From positions 10,556 through 74,555 of the forward strand of contig JBGSRW010000007.1 in assembly GCA_041737355.1 (NCBI GenBank): DNA of 64,000 nt, given 5' to 3'. The position numbers and the translations under genes are program-made. The first letter of the stretch is position 1. Each line of letters begins with the position of its first letter. This document shows positions 5,569-37,345 of the stretch, piece after piece. The notes below the pieces were generated by a model. It was not told where the DNA came from and did not search any database. It saw only the letters and a program-made list of their open reading frames with translations. The stretch is from Patescibacteria group bacterium. GTDB lineage: Bacteria; Patescibacteriota; Patescibacteriia; XYB2-FULL-38-15.

Positions 5569-6993
5569 ATGTCTTTAACCCGCCAAGTCGCCCATAATAT
5601 GATATACCAGGTAGCCGGCAAATTGCTGTCCACCGTTTTCGGTTTGCTGGCGCTCGGAATAATGACACGGTACTTGGGCCAGGAAGGTTTCGGCGGATAC
5701 ACGACGATCGTCGCTTTTTTACAATTTTTCGGCATTATGGTCGATTTTGGGCTGACGCTTACGACCGTGCAAATGATTTCCGAACCGGGAGCCGACGAAA
5801 ATAAAATTACCGGCAATATTTTTACTTTAAGATTTTTTTCTGCCCTGATTTTTTTGGGGCTGGCCCCGCTCGTCGTCCTATTTTTCCCTTATAGCCACAC
5901 TTTGAAAATCGGCGTGACAATCACTACTTTTTCTTTTCTGTTCATCGCGCTTAACCAGGTTTTGGTCGGTCTTTTCCAAAAACATTTATCCATGTGGAAG
6001 GTAGCTGTTTCGGAAAATGTCGGACGTGTTGTCCTTCTCGCGGGAATAGCCTTGGTTGTATTTTTCAATTTAAACTTGGTCGCGGTTATGGCGGCTGTAG
6101 TCTTGGGAAGCGCGGCTAATTTTATTATAAATTTTATTTTCTCGCTGAAATACGTCCGAATAAAATTCGTTTTCGATTGGCAGGTATGGAAAGAAATTTA
6201 CCGCCGGTCATGGCCGATCGGCCTTTCAATAGCTTTCAATTTAATCTATCTCAAGGCCGACACAATTATTTTATCCCTTTCCCAAAATCAGTCCTCTGTC
6301 GGACTTTACGGCGCCTCCTATCGCGTCTTGGACGTGCTCACGACTTTCCCGATGATGTTTGCCGGGCTGATCCTTCCCGTCCTTACGGCTACCTGGGCGG
6401 AGGGAAATCTCGAGAGATTCAGAAGGATTGCCCAAAAATCATTTGATTTTTTGATTATGATAATCGTGCCGGCTATTTTTGGAACTTTATTTTTAGGAGA
6501 ACGCCTGATGAAGTTAGTTGCCGGAGACGATTTTGCCCTTTCGGGAACTATCTTAAAAATTCTGATACTCGCCGCCGGAGCGATATTCCTCGGGACTCTT
6601 TTTGGCCATATGGTTGTCGCCGTAAAAAAACAACGGGTGATGATTTGGGGATACGCCGTGGTAGCCGTCGTCTCGCTCCTCGGCTACGTTATTCTCATCC
6701 CCCGTTATACTTATTGGGCGGCTTCATGGATAACCGTATTTTCCGAAGGAGCCATCGCCCTTCTGACATTCTTTGTCGTCTGGAAAACGACGGGGATAGT
6801 CCTGTCCGGAAAAATTTTGTTAAAAACGGCAATCGCGAGCCTTGCCATGTCCGCAATTCTTTATTTTCTCGCCGCTGCCAACCTTCTGTTTCTCATAGCT
6901 CTCGGCGCAGCGGTTTATTTTGCCACCCTCTATTTGCTCCGGGGATACAGCAAGGAAACTATTACCGAGATTCTTAAACTAAGCGGGGAATAA
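5569..6993 (+). CDS. oligosaccharide flippase (Wzx/MOP superfamily polysaccharide biosynthesis protein)
   Basis: 474 aa with about 12-14 TM helices. Overall similarity to Wzx/PST-family flippases. Confidence 0.7.
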   Translation: MSLTRQVAHNMIYQVAGKLLSTVFGLLALGIMTRYLGQEGFGGYTTIVAFLQFFGIMVDFGLTLTTVQMISEPGADENKITGNIFTLRFFSALIFLGLAPLVVLFFPYSHTLKIGVTITTFSFLFIALNQVLVGLFQKHLSMWKVAVSENVGRVVLLAGIALVVFFNLNLVAVMAAVVLGSAANFIINFIFSLKYVRIKFVFDWQVWKEIYRRSWPIGLSIAFNLIYLKADTIILSLSQNQSSVGLYGASYRVLDVLTTFPMMFAGLILPVLTATWAEGNLERFRRIAQKSFDFLIMIIVPAIFGTLFLGERLMKLVAGDDFALSGTILKILILAAGAIFLGTLFGHMVVAVKKQRVMIWGYAVVAVVSLLGYVILIPRYTYWAASWITVFSEGAIALLTFFVVWKTTGIVLSGKILLKTAIASLAMSAILYFLAAANLLFLIALGAAVYFATLYLLRGYSKETITEILKLSGE

Positions 6994-33279: not shown

Positions 33280-33366
33280 AATAATTTATTACACGGGATA
33301 TTTTTTTAATTTCAGCTAACGTCAGGGATATGAGAAGTTGCGACCAACGGGAGCGATTTGGGTGAA

Positions 33367-33393
33367 GGGCAGAGGGGTTAGGGGTGAATGCCC
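33367..33393. repeat. 27 bp imperfect-dyad element, copy 1 (GGGCAGAGGGGTTAGGGGTGAATGCCC)
   Basis: Direct repeat of 34122-34148 (25/27 identical). Ends GGGCA...TGCCC are inverted. Followed by a shared CCTTATTKTATTT tail. Confidence 0.6.
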
Positions 33394-33408
33394 AAAATCT
33401 AAAACTCC

Positions 33409-34101
33409 TTATTTTATTTTAAATATGCGAAATAAATTAGTGAGTCTTCTTTCGGCGTTGGGAATATCAACGTCAAAATCCTTTACCCCTTTTTTATATA
33501 ATTCCCTGAGGTAAAGAGAGCACGAAAAAATCCAACAATAATCATAATCAAAATGTTTCTTTTCCATATTGTACCGACTGAAACTAGTAATCTTACTGCT
33601 TGGACATCTAACATCCCAAAATATTAACAATGGCTCTTGCGTATATGGGTCATCGATATCCCTATTGTTTTTTCTCATTTTAATTAGCACTTTATTCAAT
33701 CCGTTTTCGTCGCTATCGTTAAGTTCCAGAACGTCTTTTACCCAGTTTCTATTTGTCTTTTCCAAAAGATCGCGCTCGCTAATATCTACCGGCACATCTA
33801 ACCCTCCCATCGATCTGGAACACCAGCTTTTTATTTCTGTCTGAAAAAGTGTCTGCTTATCCTTAGTTTTCTCTATTATCCATCGATCCAACCGTCTACC
33901 CCTTATTGTGCCAAGTACTGGGATTTCTTTATTGGCATCAATTATTTGAACATTAGAGCCGCGCTCTTTTTCGCAGTAATGCTTGAATAGTGCTGCCCCC
34001 AGATCTTCCCCGACGACAGAAATGGCCGCGGTTGTATCTCCATAGCCAGTCGATTTTTTTATATCGAAGTATTCAAGCAATTCCTTTATATATAACTTCA
34101 T
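33409..34101 (-). CDS. hypothetical protein (possible PD-(D/E)xK-like nuclease) in AT-rich defense island
   Basis: 230 aa, about 30% GC. 'RLDRW...QTEIKSW' could be a D...ExK motif, but this is weak. No family recognised. Confidence 0.35.
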   Translation of the reverse strand: MKLYIKELLEYFDIKKSTGYGDTTAAISVVGEDLGAALFKHYCEKERGSNVQIIDANKEIPVLGTIRGRRLDRWIIEKTKDKQTLFQTEIKSWCSRSMGGLDVPVDISERDLLEKTNRNWVKDVLELNDSDENGLNKVLIKMRKNNRDIDDPYTQEPLLIFWDVRCPSSKITSFSRYNMEKKHFDYDYCWIFSCSLYLRELYKKGVKDFDVDIPNAERRLTNLFRIFKIK

Positions 34102-34121
34102 AAATTTGTTTTTTTGATTTT

Positions 34122-34148
34122 GGGCAGAGGAGTTAGGGGCGAATGCCC
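34122..34148. repeat. 27 bp imperfect-dyad element, copy 2 (GGGCAGAGGAGTTAGGGGCGAATGCCC)
   Basis: See copy 1. Lies 21 nt upstream of the start of the 33409-34101 gene on the minus strand. Confidence 0.6.
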
Positions 34149-34163
34149 TGGAGCCAAGACGCC

Positions 34164-35150
34164 TTATTGTATTTCAAATTCTTGATCAACTTCTAATAAA
34201 TGAGTTTTTAACTCGTTAATTCCAGCGTCAAGAGCGTCAATGTAAACTTCAAGTTCATAATTTTCAAAATTACCTGTATTTTTAAATGTTTCGATTTTGC
34301 TAAATACATAATCTAGTTTTTTGATTACTTCTTCTGTTCCGGGAATCCTCAAAGTTTCGCCAAATTTACCATAACGATTTTCTAAACTTTTTCTTATTTT
34401 TTTATATAATTCGTAATAATGATTAAAACTAGGCCATGCTAAATGGTCATTCCAAGAAACACCATAAATAAGATTTATCTGATACAGAGAAGGTTTGTTT
34501 AATAGATCAGATAATTTTTCATTTTTAAATATTTTTTTATGTTGTTTCTCTTCTTTTTGAATCTCTTTCATAACTATTTCTAATTCATTTCCGAGATGTT
34601 TATCTTGCTGACTAATAATATCCGAAAATTTTATCGTTTTACTTTCTGTTTTTGAATGCATCCACAGCACATATCGGAAACCGTCTTTACTCAAAGACGA
34701 ACGGTCAATAGTACAAGAGGTAATTTCATCATTTTCAAATTTTGATTTTTTGCCTTTGTTTTCTTTTTTAACAGGGTGCCCTATGGTTTCGTTTCTGACT
34801 TGTCTAATTTTAAATAGTTCAAAATATTTTTTGTCTTTCCAATCAATTTTATTACTTATACCAAATAAGGATATTTTTAAAAAGTTTACGGCGTCTTGTT
34901 GAATAAAAAGAGCTTGTAAAAGTCCGTAAGTCGCTAGATATGGATTTTTTATAAATAAATCATTTGGATCTTTTTGGAAATTTTCGATTGCTAAGCAGGT
35001 ATCCTCAAGCGTATCTAATGCCGCACAAAATTGATTCCAGTCTCCGCTCTGTTTTCTAGAATAAACTTGTGTCTTTTTTATTGTTGAATTATTAAAAAGC
35101 TCTCTAATCTGATGACTAACTTCCAAAATTTTAAATTTATTATCAACCAT
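34164..35150 (-). CDS. hypothetical protein with HEPN-like Rx5H motif (Abi-like candidate)
   Basis: 328 aa, AT-rich. 'KIRQVRNETIGHPV' fits the HEPN R-x(4-6)-H motif. Size and motif position are reminiscent of AbiD/AbiF (Abi_2) proteins. This is inference only. Confidence 0.35.
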   Translation of the reverse strand: MVDNKFKILEVSHQIRELFNNSTIKKTQVYSRKQSGDWNQFCAALDTLEDTCLAIENFQKDPNDLFIKNPYLATYGLLQALFIQQDAVNFLKISLFGISNKIDWKDKKYFELFKIRQVRNETIGHPVKKENKGKKSKFENDEITSCTIDRSSLSKDGFRYVLWMHSKTESKTIKFSDIISQQDKHLGNELEIVMKEIQKEEKQHKKIFKNEKLSDLLNKPSLYQINLIYGVSWNDHLAWPSFNHYYELYKKIRKSLENRYGKFGETLRIPGTEEVIKKLDYVFSKIETFKNTGNFENYELEVYIDALDAGINELKTHLLEVDQEFEIQ

Positions 35151-35169
35151 AGCCGAGACTCCTTAATAT

Positions 35170-36420
35170 TTATGCAGCGAGCGCAAATAATTGTTGCTGA
35201 GCACATGTAGGTGCTTCGATTTCTTCTTTAACTTCACCGTTAAGCATTTTTATTATCATATCTCCAATATAATATCCAAGATTTACAGGCACAGCATTTC
35301 CTATTTGCTTGTACTGCTGGGAAACAGAACCGGAAAATTTCCAATTATCTGGAAACGTCTGAATTCGTGCATATTCGCGTACTGTTAAAGGGCGTGTTTC
35401 TTCCGGATGACAACGTTCAGTCTGTTTTTGGGCTGGGCTGCAAGTTAAAGTTAAAGAAGGTTCATCCCATGATAATCGCCTCGCCATACCAGTTTTACCG
35501 CCACCCATAAAATAACTAGCCCCCATATATTCTTTTTGAAGATTTTCTGGGAGATCTCTCCAATATCCACCCGGAGGAATTAATTCCAATATTTTTTTCT
35601 TTTTTGGGGGGTACTCTTGACCCTCAGATTTTGGACATTTATAGAATGCTTCGCGCAAGGGGATTATGTAGTCTTTTTCTTTGGGGAATGAAATAGGGAT
35701 ATCTAGATCTTTTCTAACTCCAATAATTATTAAGCGCTCTCTTTTTTGTGGGATATCTAAATATTGAGATCGTAAAATTTTGTATTTGACTCTATATCCG
35801 AGTTCTTCCAAAACACTAACCATCGTTTTAATCGTTCTTCCGTCATCATGGTTTAATAAACCTTTAACATTTTCGCCGATCGCAATTTTTGGCTTAACTT
35901 CCTTGACGCATCTGGCAAATTCAAAAAACAAAGTCCCCCTTATATCTTCAAACCCCATTTTGTTTCCAGCACAAGAAAAAGCCTGACAAGGAAAACCGCC
36001 TTGAACTATATCAGCTTGTCCTTCAAAAAATTTAAGTTCCCTAATATCACCTTCGACCACGTTCCAGTTTGGTTTATTTGTTCGAAGTGTTTCGCAGGCA
36101 TGCTTGTCATATTCGTTTAGTAGAACATGATCAATTCCTGCATTTTCCATTCCTAAGGCAGTACCACCAGCGCCGGCAAATAGCTCAATCGCTGTATACG
36201 GAGACATTTTATGATTTTTTAAAATTTTAAATTTACTTTTTTTATCTCCGCTTGTCCTATTTTGAATCCTTTCTATTTCATCTAAGCAAAATATGCGATC
36301 ATTCCTCTCATTCCGAAAAGCTTTTATCAGTCCTTTTTTATCCCATCTTCTAATGGTATCTATGGAAGTACCTAATTTTAAAGCCACTTCTCCAGCAGTA
36401 AAAAATTTATCGTTTTTCAT
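35170..36420 (-). CDS. DNA (cytosine-5)-methyltransferase with N-terminal MerR-type HTH
   Basis: C5-MTase motifs: I 'ELFAGAGGTALGMENAG', IV 'GGFPCQAFSCAGN', VI 'ENVKGL', X 'QIGNAVPV'. The first ~60 aa form a MerR-like HTH ('FTAGEVALKLGTSIDTIRRWDKKGLI'). Confidence 0.9.
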   Translation of the reverse strand: MKNDKFFTAGEVALKLGTSIDTIRRWDKKGLIKAFRNERNDRIFCLDEIERIQNRTSGDKKSKFKILKNHKMSPYTAIELFAGAGGTALGMENAGIDHVLLNEYDKHACETLRTNKPNWNVVEGDIRELKFFEGQADIVQGGFPCQAFSCAGNKMGFEDIRGTLFFEFARCVKEVKPKIAIGENVKGLLNHDDGRTIKTMVSVLEELGYRVKYKILRSQYLDIPQKRERLIIIGVRKDLDIPISFPKEKDYIIPLREAFYKCPKSEGQEYPPKKKKILELIPPGGYWRDLPENLQKEYMGASYFMGGGKTGMARRLSWDEPSLTLTCSPAQKQTERCHPEETRPLTVREYARIQTFPDNWKFSGSVSQQYKQIGNAVPVNLGYYIGDMIIKMLNGEVKEEIEAPTCAQQQLFALAA

Positions 36421-36427
36421 AAAAAAA

Positions 36428-36448
36428 TGATAGATAACTAATCTATCA
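36428..36448. promoter_or_regulatory. palindromic candidate operator TGATAGAT-AACTA-ATCTATCA upstream of the MTase gene
   Basis: Perfect 8 bp inverted repeat, 8 bp upstream of the MTase start. Plausible binding site for the MTase's own HTH (autoregulation, as in SsoII-type systems). Confidence 0.4.
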
Positions 36449-36482
36449 TAATTCTACCATATAACCTTTGCCTAGGCAATGG

Positions 36483-37190
36483 TTATTTTGTGGAAAAAGC
36501 TAATTTAAATAGCTCAAAATACTTTCGAGCTTCCCTTTTGCTTAATTTAAACTTATATTTATCCACCAAAATATGGGACAGCGCCTCAAATAGCTCCTGC
36601 AGAGCATACTTTCGGCCAGTAGCTAGGGCATAAAAGCTTATGCCATCAATTACCCTGATATTTTTAACCCTCGGCCGTCGTTTTTTAGTCTTGTTGTCTG
36701 AGGGCGTAAAAGGTTTATCATACTTATGTTTTCCCTGTGGTATAACTTCCACATAATATCCAATAAAGTCTTTGTATTTTACATTTTTAAGTTTAGATTT
36801 TATGGCGTCATAGATTTCAACCTTATGATTGCCCTTTGTTGTATTAAATTTATTTTTTACTTCAACAATAATTTTCATATTATCACTTGCGACATCTAAC
36901 ACTCCACCCACGCCGAGGTTTTTCCAACCCGGAACAGCTCCTAAAATTTCTTGATGAAAATCACCAATAGCATTTTGCATTGTTTTTTGAGATTGCCTGG
37001 CTTTTTCTTGTTCGATCCATTCTTTATAAGTTATGGCATGTGTTACACCATGAAATAAGGCAGAAAAAGGGTCAATAACATTTTTATGCAGATTATTGCC
37101 CGCTTCATGTTCCGCTGTTTCTATTATTTTAACAACCTTTCCTACGGCGGAAATCAAGTTTTTGTCGGATATAAATTTTAGGTAGGGCAT
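36483..37190 (-). CDS. Type II restriction endonuclease (PD-(D/E)xK; Eco47II-like?)
   Basis: 235 aa immediately upstream of, and co-oriented with, the C5-MTase. 'LDVASDNMKIIVEVK' is a D-x11-E-x-K catalytic signature. The family assignment (Eco47II/Sau96I-like) is from memory only. Confidence 0.5.
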   Translation of the reverse strand: MPYLKFISDKNLISAVGKVVKIIETAEHEAGNNLHKNVIDPFSALFHGVTHAITYKEWIEQEKARQSQKTMQNAIGDFHQEILGAVPGWKNLGVGGVLDVASDNMKIIVEVKNKFNTTKGNHKVEIYDAIKSKLKNVKYKDFIGYYVEVIPQGKHKYDKPFTPSDNKTKKRRPRVKNIRVIDGISFYALATGRKYALQELFEALSHILVDKYKFKLSKREARKYFELFKLAFSTK

Positions 37191-37345
37191 AAATAATGAT
37201 TAAAGTTAATAAAATTGTTTTATACGTGCCTCTATTGTCCTTCGGCTTAACTTGAATATTGTGCTAATTTTCTGTATAATTTAAATAAGTTTATGTTATT
37301 AGAGCATAGCAACAAATACGCCCTAATGCAACGATATTTTACCTT

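What the first reader, a model, noticed from the sequence alone, without database searches (positions are those of the whole stretch)
33409..35150. Two uncharacterised genes downstream of the R-M pair: candidate novel defense module (HEPN-like Rx5H motif)
The 328 aa protein carries 'VRNETIGH', which fits the R-x(4-6)-H HEPN RNase signature. Its size resembles AbiD/AbiF (Abi_2) abortive-infection proteins. The adjacent 230 aa protein has a possible D...ExK arrangement. Both lie within the AT-rich island directly 3' of the R-M genes, and one is bracketed by the 27 bp repeats. Together this is the classic context for phage-defense genes, but neither protein matched a family I could name with confidence.
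Basis: inference. Interest (0 to 1): 0.65.

Follow-up and report, generated by a model that had tools for sequence, protein, structure and literature searches.

The report
Two separate defence-island gene cassettes
The two unnamed genes behind the restriction-modification pair are real and conserved, one a probable HEPN-type RNase and one a PD-(D/E)xK nuclease, but they are independent mobile genes rather than a two-gene system, and the repeat around the second marks where it was spliced in at a conserved DNA hairpin.

Summary
Both ORFs sit at the stated coordinates in a low-GC island, 3' of an Eco47II-type REase and a MerR-HTH/C5-MTase.

- **328-aa protein.** It belongs to a large unannotated family (2,152 50%-identity clusters). 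R119, G124, H125 and P126 are invariant in 63/63 diverse members. The motif RNxxxGHP sits at the end of a helix, where HEPN active sites lie. No significant profile or fold match to any HEPN family was obtained.
- **230-aa protein.** It belongs to a family, mostly from Patescibacteria, with an invariant E32…D72…E89-x-K91 (PD-(D/E)xK nuclease). Its best fold hits are McrC and other nucleases, all weak.
- **Not a pair.** The two never co-occur in 85 + 80 related loci. Each rides alone next to varied defence genes: three different type II R-M systems, Shedu, type I HsdR, GmrSD, TIR.
- **The "27-bp repeat".** It is the conserved centre of a hairpin element whose outer stems covary between genomes. 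The two window copies are broken hybrids with swapped arms. The 755-bp segment carrying the 230-aa gene was therefore inserted by recombination inside that centre.

The defence role and the RNase and DNase activities are inferred, not shown.

The parts
36483..37190 (-). Type II restriction endonuclease, Eco47II family (235 aa); first gene of the island
   Evidence: Pfam PF09553 E 2.8e-49, PADLOC REase_II E 4.9e-53
35170..36420 (-). C5 cytosine DNA methyltransferase with an N-terminal MerR-type HTH (416 aa)
   Evidence: PF00145 E 5e-84 over residues 76-391; PF00376 MerR E 5e-9 over residues 8-44
34164..35150 (-). 328-aa HEPN-like protein. It starts 19 nt after the MTase stop, behind an AAGGAG Shine-Dalgarno. 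GC is 0.28, the lowest in the island.
   Evidence: Family size: (2,152 clusters). Model pLDDT 88.7: helices 7-122, beta-meander 143-174, long helices 175-324.
34773..34796 (-). Codons R119-N-E-T-I-G-H-P126: the conserved RNxxxGHP (R-x5-H) motif, predicted active site
   Evidence: Invariant or near-invariant in 63 homologues of 24-77% identity. It lies at the C-terminal end of helix 107-122 and the following loop, the position described for HEPN motifs (PMC3710099).
34106..34164 (-). Hairpin-element copy A (core at 34122-34148). It is a hybrid: the left arm is like the L008 element and the right arm like the L002 c2 element. It does not fold.
   Evidence: covariance model R1 63 bits; fold z -0.7
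33409..34101 (-). 230-aa PD-(D/E)xK nuclease-fold protein; no Shine-Dalgarno before its ATG
   Evidence: Invariant G31-E32, L71-D72-R73-W74, Q87-x-E89-I90-K91. Model pLDDT 91 with a helix-strand-strand-strand core. Foldseek top hits are McrC, Bax1, R2 endonuclease, AF1548, RecU and PaqCI.
33829..33888 (-). Codons D72 to K91: the D...E-x-K catalytic core of the 230-aa protein (E32 is at 34006-34008)
33351..33409 (-). Hairpin-element copy B (core at 33367-33393). It is a hybrid: the left arm is like L002 c2 and the right arm is a degenerate L008-type arm. It does not fold.
   Evidence: R1 66 bits; fold z -0.3. Swapping arms with copy A restores the hairpins.

Best explanation
The region is a mosaic, horizontally acquired defence island built from independent cassettes.

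(1) An Eco47II-type R-M pair is followed, probably in the same transcript, by a solitary 328-aa protein. Its N-terminal helical domain carries an invariant RNxxxGHP motif at a helix end. I infer a HEPN-type, metal-independent RNase. It would act as a second-line (abortive-infection or toxin-like) effector, as proposed for other HEPN genes attached to R-M systems. Its long C-terminal helices are probably for dimerisation or sensing.

(2) A 755-bp segment carrying a solitary 230-aa PD-(D/E)xK nuclease was later inserted. I infer a DNA endonuclease that works without a cognate methylase. The insertion happened by recombination inside the conserved centre of a hairpin element that lay just after the 328-aa gene. 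It left two hybrid, non-folding copies with exchanged arms, like attL and attR.

Shown: gene existence, motif conservation, lack of co-occurrence, hairpin covariation, arm swapping. Inferred: RNase and DNase activity, a defence role, and whether the recombination was site-specific or homologous.
For: 328-aa protein:
- R119, G124, H125 and P126 are 63/63 and N120 is 60/63 in homologues spanning several bacterial phyla and some archaeal MAGs.
- The motif sits at the end of helix 107-122 plus the following loop in a confident model. This matches the published HEPN description, including the polar N after the R.
- Weak hints point the same way: 2/63 members hit PF18867 HEPN-like_int (E 0.0046) and 2/63 hit PF18734 AbiU2. 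Foldseek hits a HEPN toxin, 8yuf_B, at rmsd 3.7 A over 101 columns and TM 0.44. UniProt names the Kordia member A9E6J9, 36% identical over 296 aa, 'HEPN domain-containing protein'.
- Context: it lies directly 3' of N4/N6-MTase + MvaI/BcnI REase (gap 3 nt), of an EcoRI-type methylase, and of Shedu SduA twice. It also lies next to type I R-M plus a serine recombinase. About 10 of 61 upstream neighbours are R-M or defence proteins.
- In an Oceanospirillum MAG it sits alone between two copies of a repeat that recurs along an array.

230-aa protein:
- The E...D...ExK residues are invariant and the nuclease-fold hits agree.
- Relatives lie after EcoEI-type HsdR genes and in an island with GmrSD, Shedu and TIR.
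- Only 1 of 70 immediate neighbours is a DNA methylase.

Independence of the two genes:
- 0 co-occurrences in 85 and 80 loci.
- No recurrent neighbour family.
- GC3 is 0.20 for the 328-aa gene and 0.38 for the 230-aa gene.

Insertion:
- Intact hairpins in other genomes fold with z -5.5, -5.4 and -3.8.
- 12 of 17 stem pairs carry compensatory changes, matched by 0/500 shuffles.
- The window copies do not fold.
- Exchanging their arms gives dG -11.5 (z -3.6, 0/200) and dG -8.3 (z -1.8).
Against: - No significant sequence-profile or structural match to any HEPN family. Pfam E>0.004 in single members. PDB profile searches found nothing. Foldseek against PDB and BFVD gave E>0.1.
- The spacing is R-x5-H with G before the H, one residue longer than the commonest form.
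- PADLOC has no model for either protein, and no experiment links either family to defence.
- Several close relatives of the 328-aa gene sit among housekeeping genes.
- For the 230-aa protein the fold matches are weak (best E 1e-3, poor rmsd).
- The right arm of copy B matches the L008 arm in only 8 of 12 positions. A version of it also lies upstream of a 230-aa homologue in L167. The recombination history is therefore more complex than a single clean event.
Confidence: 0.6

Rival explanations
1. One reading: the 328-aa and 230-aa proteins work together as one two-gene defence system (RNase + DNase).
For: They are adjacent, co-directional and 62 nt apart in a defence island. Both look like nucleases.
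Against: They never co-occur elsewhere: 0 of 85 loci and 0 of 80 loci. The closest homologues of each (86-91% identical) have other neighbours. The 230-aa gene is bracketed by hybrid junction copies that mark a separate insertion. Their codon GC differs.
Confidence: 0.06
2. The 328-aa protein is not an RNase. Its conserved R/N/H residues would serve binding or another chemistry, and it would be a regulatory, sensor or structural accessory, or an addiction toxin of another type.
For: No significant HEPN homology. Two thirds of the protein is long helices plus a beta-meander of unknown role. Other invariant residues (D50, Q85, R259, H204) have no assigned role.
Against: The invariant RN...H at a helix end is the HEPN hallmark. 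Weak hits from three independent sources all point to HEPN. Attachment to R-M systems is a typical HEPN context.
Confidence: 0.25
3. The 230-aa nuclease is a selfish mobility (homing-type) endonuclease that moves its own cassette, not a defence effector.
For: It is solitary and has highly varied neighbours, including housekeeping genes. Other family members are flanked by direct repeats or palindromes: L158 by a perfect 30-nt palindrome on both sides, L144 by a 25-nt repeat. In two operons whose HsdR proteins are 84% identical, the slot after hsdR holds members only 36% identical.
Against: The same hairpin element also bounds cassettes with no 230-family gene: in L002 it brackets MTase + REase + 328 homologue. 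The nuclease is therefore not required in cis. The closest relatives sit inside dense defence islands.
Confidence: 0.2
4. The hairpin is only a 3'-UTR stabiliser or terminator that travels with these genes. The hybrid copies would then arise from ordinary homologous recombination between 27-nt identical centres, with no dedicated cassette-exchange machinery.
For: Most copies start 5 nt after a stop codon in the sense orientation. 27 nt of identity is roughly enough for RecA-type exchange (general knowledge). No recombinase gene was seen next to the copies examined.
Against: The loop is 17-21 nt and no T-run follows, so it is unlike an intrinsic terminator. One copy is inverted relative to its gene (L013). 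Two intact copies lie in tandem (L002). In L002 the copies bracket a whole three-gene block.
Confidence: 0.45

Closest known systems
HEPN-superfamily proteins linked to restriction-modification systems (Anantharaman et al. 2013, PMC3710099; e.g. PrrC/RloC, AbiU2, AbiJ, ApeA, DUF4145-type)
   Same: A conserved R-N-x..-H motif at the end of a helix. An all-alpha domain. The gene is appended to diverse R-M operons and defence islands. The proteins are solitary.
   Different: No significant match to any Pfam HEPN model. The motif is R-x5-H with an invariant G-H-P. A three-strand beta-meander lies between the motif helix and the next helix. There is a ~150-residue C-terminal helical extension and no ATPase or anticodon-nuclease partner domain.
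AbiD/AbiF (Pfam Abi_2, PF07751)
   Same: Similar size (~330 aa), a solitary gene and an RN...H motif.
   Different: No Pfam match at E<1 and none among 63 family members at E<0.1. It is not a member.
Integron-cassette HEPN (PF18867, PDB 3jrt)
   Same: Weak hits from two family members (E 0.0046). Single-gene cassette behaviour (L047 array; hairpin-bounded units).
   Different: The hits are below Pfam's threshold. The proteins are about twice as long. The flanking elements are not attC sites.
McrC and solitary (type IV-like) PD-(D/E)xK restriction nucleases
   Same: The E...D...ExK catalytic set, a nuclease-fold model, best fold hit McrC, a defence-island context and no cognate methylase.
   Different: No McrB-like GTPase partner. 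Fold similarity is weak (E 1e-3). Specificity for modified DNA is untested.
Integron attC sites / Xer-dependent pdif modules
   Same: Short hairpin-forming sites at the boundaries of promoterless gene cassettes. Hybrid sites arise after insertion.
   Different: Here the centre (loop) is conserved and the stems vary, the reverse of attC. There are no R''/R' boxes, no 11-6-11 Xer layout, and no integrase seen nearby.

Membership tests
HEPN superfamily | Conserved R-x(4-6)-H motif with a polar residue (N/D/H) right after the R | tested here: met
   R119 63/63, N120 60/63, H125 63/63; spacing x5. Definition taken from PMC3710099.
HEPN superfamily | [quoted passage not shown] | tested here: inconclusive
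HEPN superfamily | Significant profile or structural similarity to an accepted HEPN family | tested here: not met
   Pfam: 0 hits for the window protein; 2/63 members at E 0.0046 (PF18867) and 2/63 at E 0.063 (PF18734). PDB profile searches: none. Foldseek: 8yuf_B E 1.7, TM 0.44. The only positive label is UniProt's automatic name for A9E6J9.
HEPN superfamily | Metal-independent RNase activity dependent on the R and H | not testable with these tools
   Needs biochemistry.
AbiD/AbiF (Abi_2, PF07751) | Match to the Abi_2 profile | tested here: not met
   No match at E<1 and none among 63 relatives. PADLOC Abi models: none.
PD-(D/E)xK nuclease superfamily | Catalytic (E)...D...(D/E)-x-K residues on a helix-strand-strand-strand core | tested here: met
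   E32 lies in helix 22-46, D72 at the start of strand 73-78, and E89 and K91 in strand 83-91. All are invariant in 43 sequences.
PD-(D/E)xK nuclease superfamily | Structural similarity to known members | tested here: inconclusive
   The top Foldseek PDB hits are nearly all PD-(D/E)xK nucleases (McrC E 1.1e-3, Bax1, R2 endonuclease, AF1548, RecU, PaqCI), but none passes E<1e-3 and the rmsd values are high. No Pfam match.
Classical type II restriction endonuclease (for the 230-aa protein) | A cognate DNA methyltransferase encoded next to it across the family | tested here: not met
   Only 1 of 70 immediate same-strand neighbours is a DNA methylase. There is no recurrent neighbour cluster.
Two-gene defence system (328 aa + 230 aa) | Conserved co-occurrence of the two families | tested here: not met
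   0 of 85 and 0 of 80 related loci.
Known anti-phage systems (PADLOC-DB v2) | Match to any system model | tested here: not met
   0 families for either protein at E<1. 63 relatives give only scattered chance-level hits.
Integron attC site (for the repeat) | Conserved R''(RYYYAAC)/R'(GTTRRRY) boxes at the ends of an imperfect hairpin with a variable centre, and an intI gene nearby | tested here: not met
   Here the centre is conserved and the stems vary. There is only one CCTAAC-like word. No integrase appears among the annotated neighbours. intI was not searched for genome-wide.

The most novel reading that the evidence does not exclude
The hairpin consists of a variable, covarying 8-17-bp stem around a conserved C-rich loop, ATTCACCCC-N3-7-CCCCTC. 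It could be the recombination site of an undescribed cassette-exchange system in Patescibacteria that shuffles defence genes between islands. R-M blocks, the HEPN-like gene and the PD-(D/E)xK gene would all be cargo. The window would preserve an attL/attR-like pair from one such insertion. The 328-aa family would then be a widespread, unnamed single-gene HEPN-type defence cassette.
Probability: 0.25. Interest if true: 0.8.

Novelty: new variant of a known kind. Interest (0 to 1): 0.55.

Why it matters
If the inferences hold, three things follow.

1. **A large unnamed family gets a testable active site.** The 328-aa family has at least 2,000 clusters across several bacterial phyla and some archaeal MAGs. 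It would gain a specific active site to test and a defence context. That would add a single-gene HEPN-type effector to the catalogue of systems that back up restriction enzymes.
2. **A solitary nuclease family becomes a candidate.** The 230-aa family, found mostly in Patescibacteria with single hits labelled Nanoarchaeota and Chloroflexota, would be a candidate methylase-independent restriction or mobility nuclease.
3. **The hairpin gives a handle on island assembly.** Patescibacteria have small genomes and few recognised mobile-element systems. The hairpin junction element offers a concrete way to ask how their defence islands are assembled. The swapped arms in this window are the kind of footprint that can be searched for in raw reads.

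Tried and rejected
**Family libraries.** Pfam, NCBIfam, PADLOC and PHROGs gave nothing usable for either protein. The same was true when 63 and 43 relatives were scanned one by one.

**Fold searches.**
- Foldseek of the 328-aa model against PDB and BFVD: nothing with E<0.1.

**Profile searches against PDB sequences.** The full-length 328 family, its N-terminal domain alone and the 230 family returned only coiled-coil or TPR noise.

**Search for a conserved partner gene.**
- Neighbour clustering found no family in more than 4 loci, and most of those were duplicate contigs.
- Pfam on 61 + 62 + 70 neighbours showed varied content.
- Longer family members (487-574 aa) carry no recognisable extra domain.

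**Phage, plasmid and E. coli collections.** Only one plasmid homologue turned up, in Marinobacter pMAQU01, annotated 'hypothetical protein'. There were no phage hits and no E. coli hit.

**The repeat as an RNA element or terminator.** The window copies do not fold better than shuffles, the terminator scan is at background, and Rfam gave nothing.

**The repeat in viral contigs.** None found.

**The core as a coding sequence.** The three differences among the closest copies all fall on third codon positions. However, divergent copies carry 1-4-nt indels in the loop, so I rejected this.

**attC identity.** Rejected for the element, and for the ~180-nt repeats of the Oceanospirillum array, which do not fold as one hairpin.

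**A link between the 230 family and helicase-type upstream genes.** It holds only for one HsdR lineage. The L106 and L108 upstream proteins have no helicase motifs.

**Literature.** Searches for HEPN or integron work in Patescibacteria found nothing specific.
Full report
**1. What is there**

Window 33300-37200 is a low-GC island (GC 0.30-0.38 against about 0.45) with four co-directional genes on the minus strand. It lies between a divergent ruvC and a GH3 glycosidase gene. The genes are:
- an Eco47II-family restriction endonuclease, 36483-37190 (PF09553, E 3e-49);
- a C5 DNA methyltransferase with an N-terminal MerR-type HTH, 35170-36420 (PF00145, E 5e-84);
- the 328-aa ORF, 34164-35150;
- the 230-aa ORF, 33409-34101.

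The 328-aa gene starts 19 nt after the methylase stop, behind an AAGGAG. The 230-aa gene follows after 62 nt and has no Shine-Dalgarno. Gene GC is 0.35, 0.37, 0.28 and 0.37. GC3 is 0.20 for the 328-aa gene and 0.38 for the 230-aa gene, against 0.45 for the window. Neither ORF matches Pfam, NCBIfam, PADLOC or PHROGs.

**2. The 328-aa protein**

*Family size and spread.*
- A word-indexed search found 77 relatives, nearly all in Patescibacteria MAGs.
- An exhaustive profile search found 2,152 clusters at 50% identity with E<=0.001, of which 615 have E<=1e-30. Nearly all are 300-330 aa.
- A genome scan found members in Bacteroidota, Gammaproteobacteria (Shewanella, Vreelandella, Marinobacter, Marinomonas), clostridial Firmicutes (Brassicibacter, Clostridium), Chloroflexota and archaeal MAGs (Methanothrix, Methanophagaceae).
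- RefSeq calls them 'hypothetical protein'.

*Conserved residues.* An alignment of 63 members at 24-77% identity has only eight invariant columns. Four of them are R119, G124, H125 and P126. N120 and R116 are nearly invariant, so the family motif is R-x-x-R-N-[DE]-[ST]-x-G-H-P. On its own an R-x(4-6)-H is meaningless: 47% of shuffles of this sequence contain one. The evidence is its conservation.

*Position of the motif.* The AlphaFold model is confident (pLDDT 88.7). It shows helices 7-122, a three-strand meander at 143-174 and long helices at 175-324. The motif lies at the C-terminal end of helix 107-122 and runs into the next loop. [quoted passage not shown]

*Other support is weak.*
- Two of 63 members touch PF18867 (integron HEPN, E 0.0046) and two touch PF18734 (AbiU2, E 0.063).
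- Foldseek lists a HEPN toxin (8yuf_B, 101 columns, rmsd 3.7 A, TM 0.44) at E 1.7.
- UniProt names the Kordia algicida member A9E6J9, 36% identical over 296 residues, 'HEPN domain-containing protein'.

**3. Context of the 328-aa family**

There is no fixed partner. Among close Patescibacteria relatives the gene lies:
- 3 nt after an N4/N6 methylase + MvaI/BcnI endonuclease pair;
- after an EcoRI-type methylase;
- 10-34 nt after Shedu SduA, twice, once also followed by an AAA_15/AAA_21 ATPase;
- before a HARE-HTH protein;
- beside a serine recombinase and a type I R-M system;
- in other cases among housekeeping genes.

Across 61 upstream and 62 downstream neighbours, roughly one in six is an R-M or other defence or mobile-element protein (Eco57I/MmeI-type, N6_N4 methylases, SduA, AbiEii-type ATPases, GmrSD, RhuM, Fic, transposases). 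Nothing recurs in more than three loci. This pattern fits a self-sufficient gene that is repeatedly deposited at the 3' edge of defence operons. HEPN clades are known to be linked to R-M systems, at least 16 of them.

In an Oceanospirillum MAG the family member sits alone between two copies of a ~180-nt repeat. That repeat recurs five times at 0.75-1.3 kb spacing, so the locus is a cassette-like array. The repeat does not fold like an attC site.

**4. The 230-aa protein**

At least 127 clusters of relatives were found, mostly in Patescibacteria, with single hits labelled Nanoarchaeota and Chloroflexota.

*Catalytic set.* The invariant columns include G31-E32, L71-D72-R73-W74 and Q87-x-E89-I90-K91. 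The model (pLDDT 91) places E32 in a helix, D72 at the start of a strand and E89/K91 in the next strand. This is the PD-(D/E)xK arrangement.

*Fold hits.* The top Foldseek PDB hits are almost all nucleases of that fold: McrC (E 1.1e-3), Bax1, the R2 endonuclease, AF1548, RecU and PaqCI. None is significant.

*Context.*
- It has no recurrent neighbour.
- Only one of 70 immediate neighbours is a DNA methylase, so it is not a classical type II enzyme.
- Its closest relatives are in defence islands. P0079 (86% identical) follows a type I operon with OLD-type ATPase, HsdS, Fic and an EcoEI-type HsdR.
- P0080 (71% identical) lies among GmrSD, Shedu and a TIR protein.
- P0137 (37% identical to the window protein) overlaps by 4 nt the end of an HsdR. 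That HsdR is 84% identical to the one before P0079, although P0079 and P0137 are only 36% identical to each other.

I infer a methylase-independent DNA endonuclease, either defensive or selfish.

**5. Not a module**

tblastn with the 230-aa protein against 85 loci (+/-6 kb) of the 328-aa family finds it only in the window's own organism. The reciprocal search of 80 loci of the 230-aa family finds no 328-aa relative.

**6. The repeat**

*Occurrence.* The 27-nt core also lies 16 nt after the stop of a 77%-identical 328-aa homologue in another genome. There the upstream R-M system is different and no 230-aa gene follows (L002). A variant lies after a 91%-identical homologue (L008).

*Structure in other genomes.* In those genomes the core is the centre of a hairpin. 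It has an inner 5-bp stem GGGCA/TGCCC and a C-rich loop ATTCACCCC-N3-7-CCCCTC. The outer stem is 8-13 bp and differs completely in sequence between copies while staying complementary:
- GTTTGAGGGAGG, GTTTTTGATTTT and GTTTTGGGTGGC (the three L002 copies);
- GTCTTGGC (L008);
- GCGAGGGTGCGGC (L013);
- GCAAGAACACGGCGGAA (L144; here the whole 17-bp stem, whose innermost pairs take the place of the inner GGGCA/TGCCC stem).

*Statistics.* The intact copies fold with z -5.5, -5.4 and -3.8. On the alignment, 12 of 17 pairs carry changes on both sides. That beats all 500 shuffles and all slid controls. In L002 two intact copies in tandem precede, and one follows, the MTase + REase + 328-homologue block. 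A covariance model finds only two copies in the 64-kb window.

*The window copies are hybrids.* They do not fold (z -0.7 and -0.3).
- Copy A has an L008-type left arm and an L002 c2-type right arm.
- Copy B has an L002 c2-type left arm and a degenerate L008-type right arm.
- Joining B-left to A-right restores an 11+4-bp hairpin (dG -11.5, z -3.6, 0/200 shuffles).
- Joining A-left to B-right gives dG -8.3 (z -1.8).

This is what recombination within the conserved centre would produce, between a resident hairpin after the 328-aa gene and the hairpin of an incoming 755-bp unit carrying the 230-aa gene.

*Open points.* Whether a dedicated recombinase or plain homologous exchange did this cannot be told. 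A related core with a copy-B-like right arm lies upstream of the 230-aa homologue P0079. The history is therefore not a single clean event. The element has no Rfam match, is not terminator-like and was not found in viral contigs.

**7. Comparison, novelty and verdict**

HEPN-type genes attached to R-M systems and solitary PD-(D/E)xK nucleases in defence islands are known kinds.

What is new:
- an unnamed, very large HEPN-like family with an R-x5-H 'RNxxxGHP' signature, a beta-meander insert and a long C-terminal helical region;
- an unnamed nuclease family found mostly in Patescibacteria;
- a hairpin junction element with a conserved loop and covarying stems.

The pair as a 'module' is rejected. 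The defence role and the enzymatic activities remain inferences. I score the finding as moderately interesting. The hairpin element, not part of the original claim, is its most promising thread.

Noticed in passing
window 33351-33409 and 34106-34164; L002 5958-6016, 6020-6082, 8987-9045; L008 6987-7046; L013 1513-1571 (-); L144 87-145: A hairpin element with a conserved C-rich loop and covarying stems sits at the boundaries of defence-gene cassettes in at least five Patescibacteria contigs. In L002 it brackets a whole MTase + REase + HEPN-like block, with two copies in tandem on one side. Most copies begin 5 nt after a stop codon, within the word TAAGGAG.
   Followed up: yes
window 36452-36495: A 25-nt overlapping palindrome centred on CCTAGG lies in the spacer between the REase stop and the methylase start. 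It is a candidate operator for the MerR-type HTH fused to the methylase (autoregulation of the R-M pair).
   Followed up: no
window 35170-36420: The C5 methyltransferase carries an N-terminal MerR-family HTH (residues 7-55). There is no separate C (controller) protein gene in the island.
   Followed up: no
L158 5957-5986 and 6714-6743 (also L157); L144 569-593 and 1304-1327: Other 230-family genes are flanked by their own repeats. In L158 a perfect 30-nt palindrome, TATATGCTTATTCGCGCGAATAAGCATATA, lies 15 nt before the start and 15 nt after the stop. In L144 there is a 25-nt direct repeat.
   Followed up: partly
L047 3187-7208: An Oceanospirillum MAG has five copies of a ~180-nt direct repeat (87% identical) at 0.75-1.3 kb spacing, with one short gene between each pair. 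One of those genes is a 328-family member (5986-6942). It looks like a cassette array, but the repeat does not fold like an attC site.
   Followed up: partly
L167 3537-6696 and L177 2632-5687: Two type I R-M operons have EcoEI-type HsdR proteins that are 84% identical. In the same downstream slot they carry 230-family genes that are only 36% identical, one separated by a degenerate hairpin core and the other overlapping hsdR by 4 nt.
   Followed up: partly
L002 1-5957: Upstream of the hairpin-bounded R-M block lie an N6_N4 methylase, a ResIII helicase (757 aa) and a 985-aa RelA/SpoT-domain protein in one direction. This could be another, unclassified defence operon.
   Followed up: no
window 33338-33514 (+): A 58-aa antisense ORF spans hairpin copy B. 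The three differences among the closest core copies are all at third codon positions in one frame on each strand. Indels in divergent copies argue against coding.
   Followed up: partly
window 34164-35150 vs 33409-34101: The last six codons of the two unrelated genes are alike: GAATTTGAAATACAATAA and ATATTTAAAATAAAATAA. Both endings are native to their families. The microhomology extends the apparent repeat to 58 nt and may have helped the recombination.
   Followed up: partly
L170 (Marinobacter nauticus VT8 plasmid pMAQU01, record 12912-13862): The only plasmid-borne homologue of the 328-aa protein (WP_011783375.1, 'hypothetical protein') lies near a SIR2-family protein, IS elements and a PAPS-reductase-family gene.
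   Followed up: no
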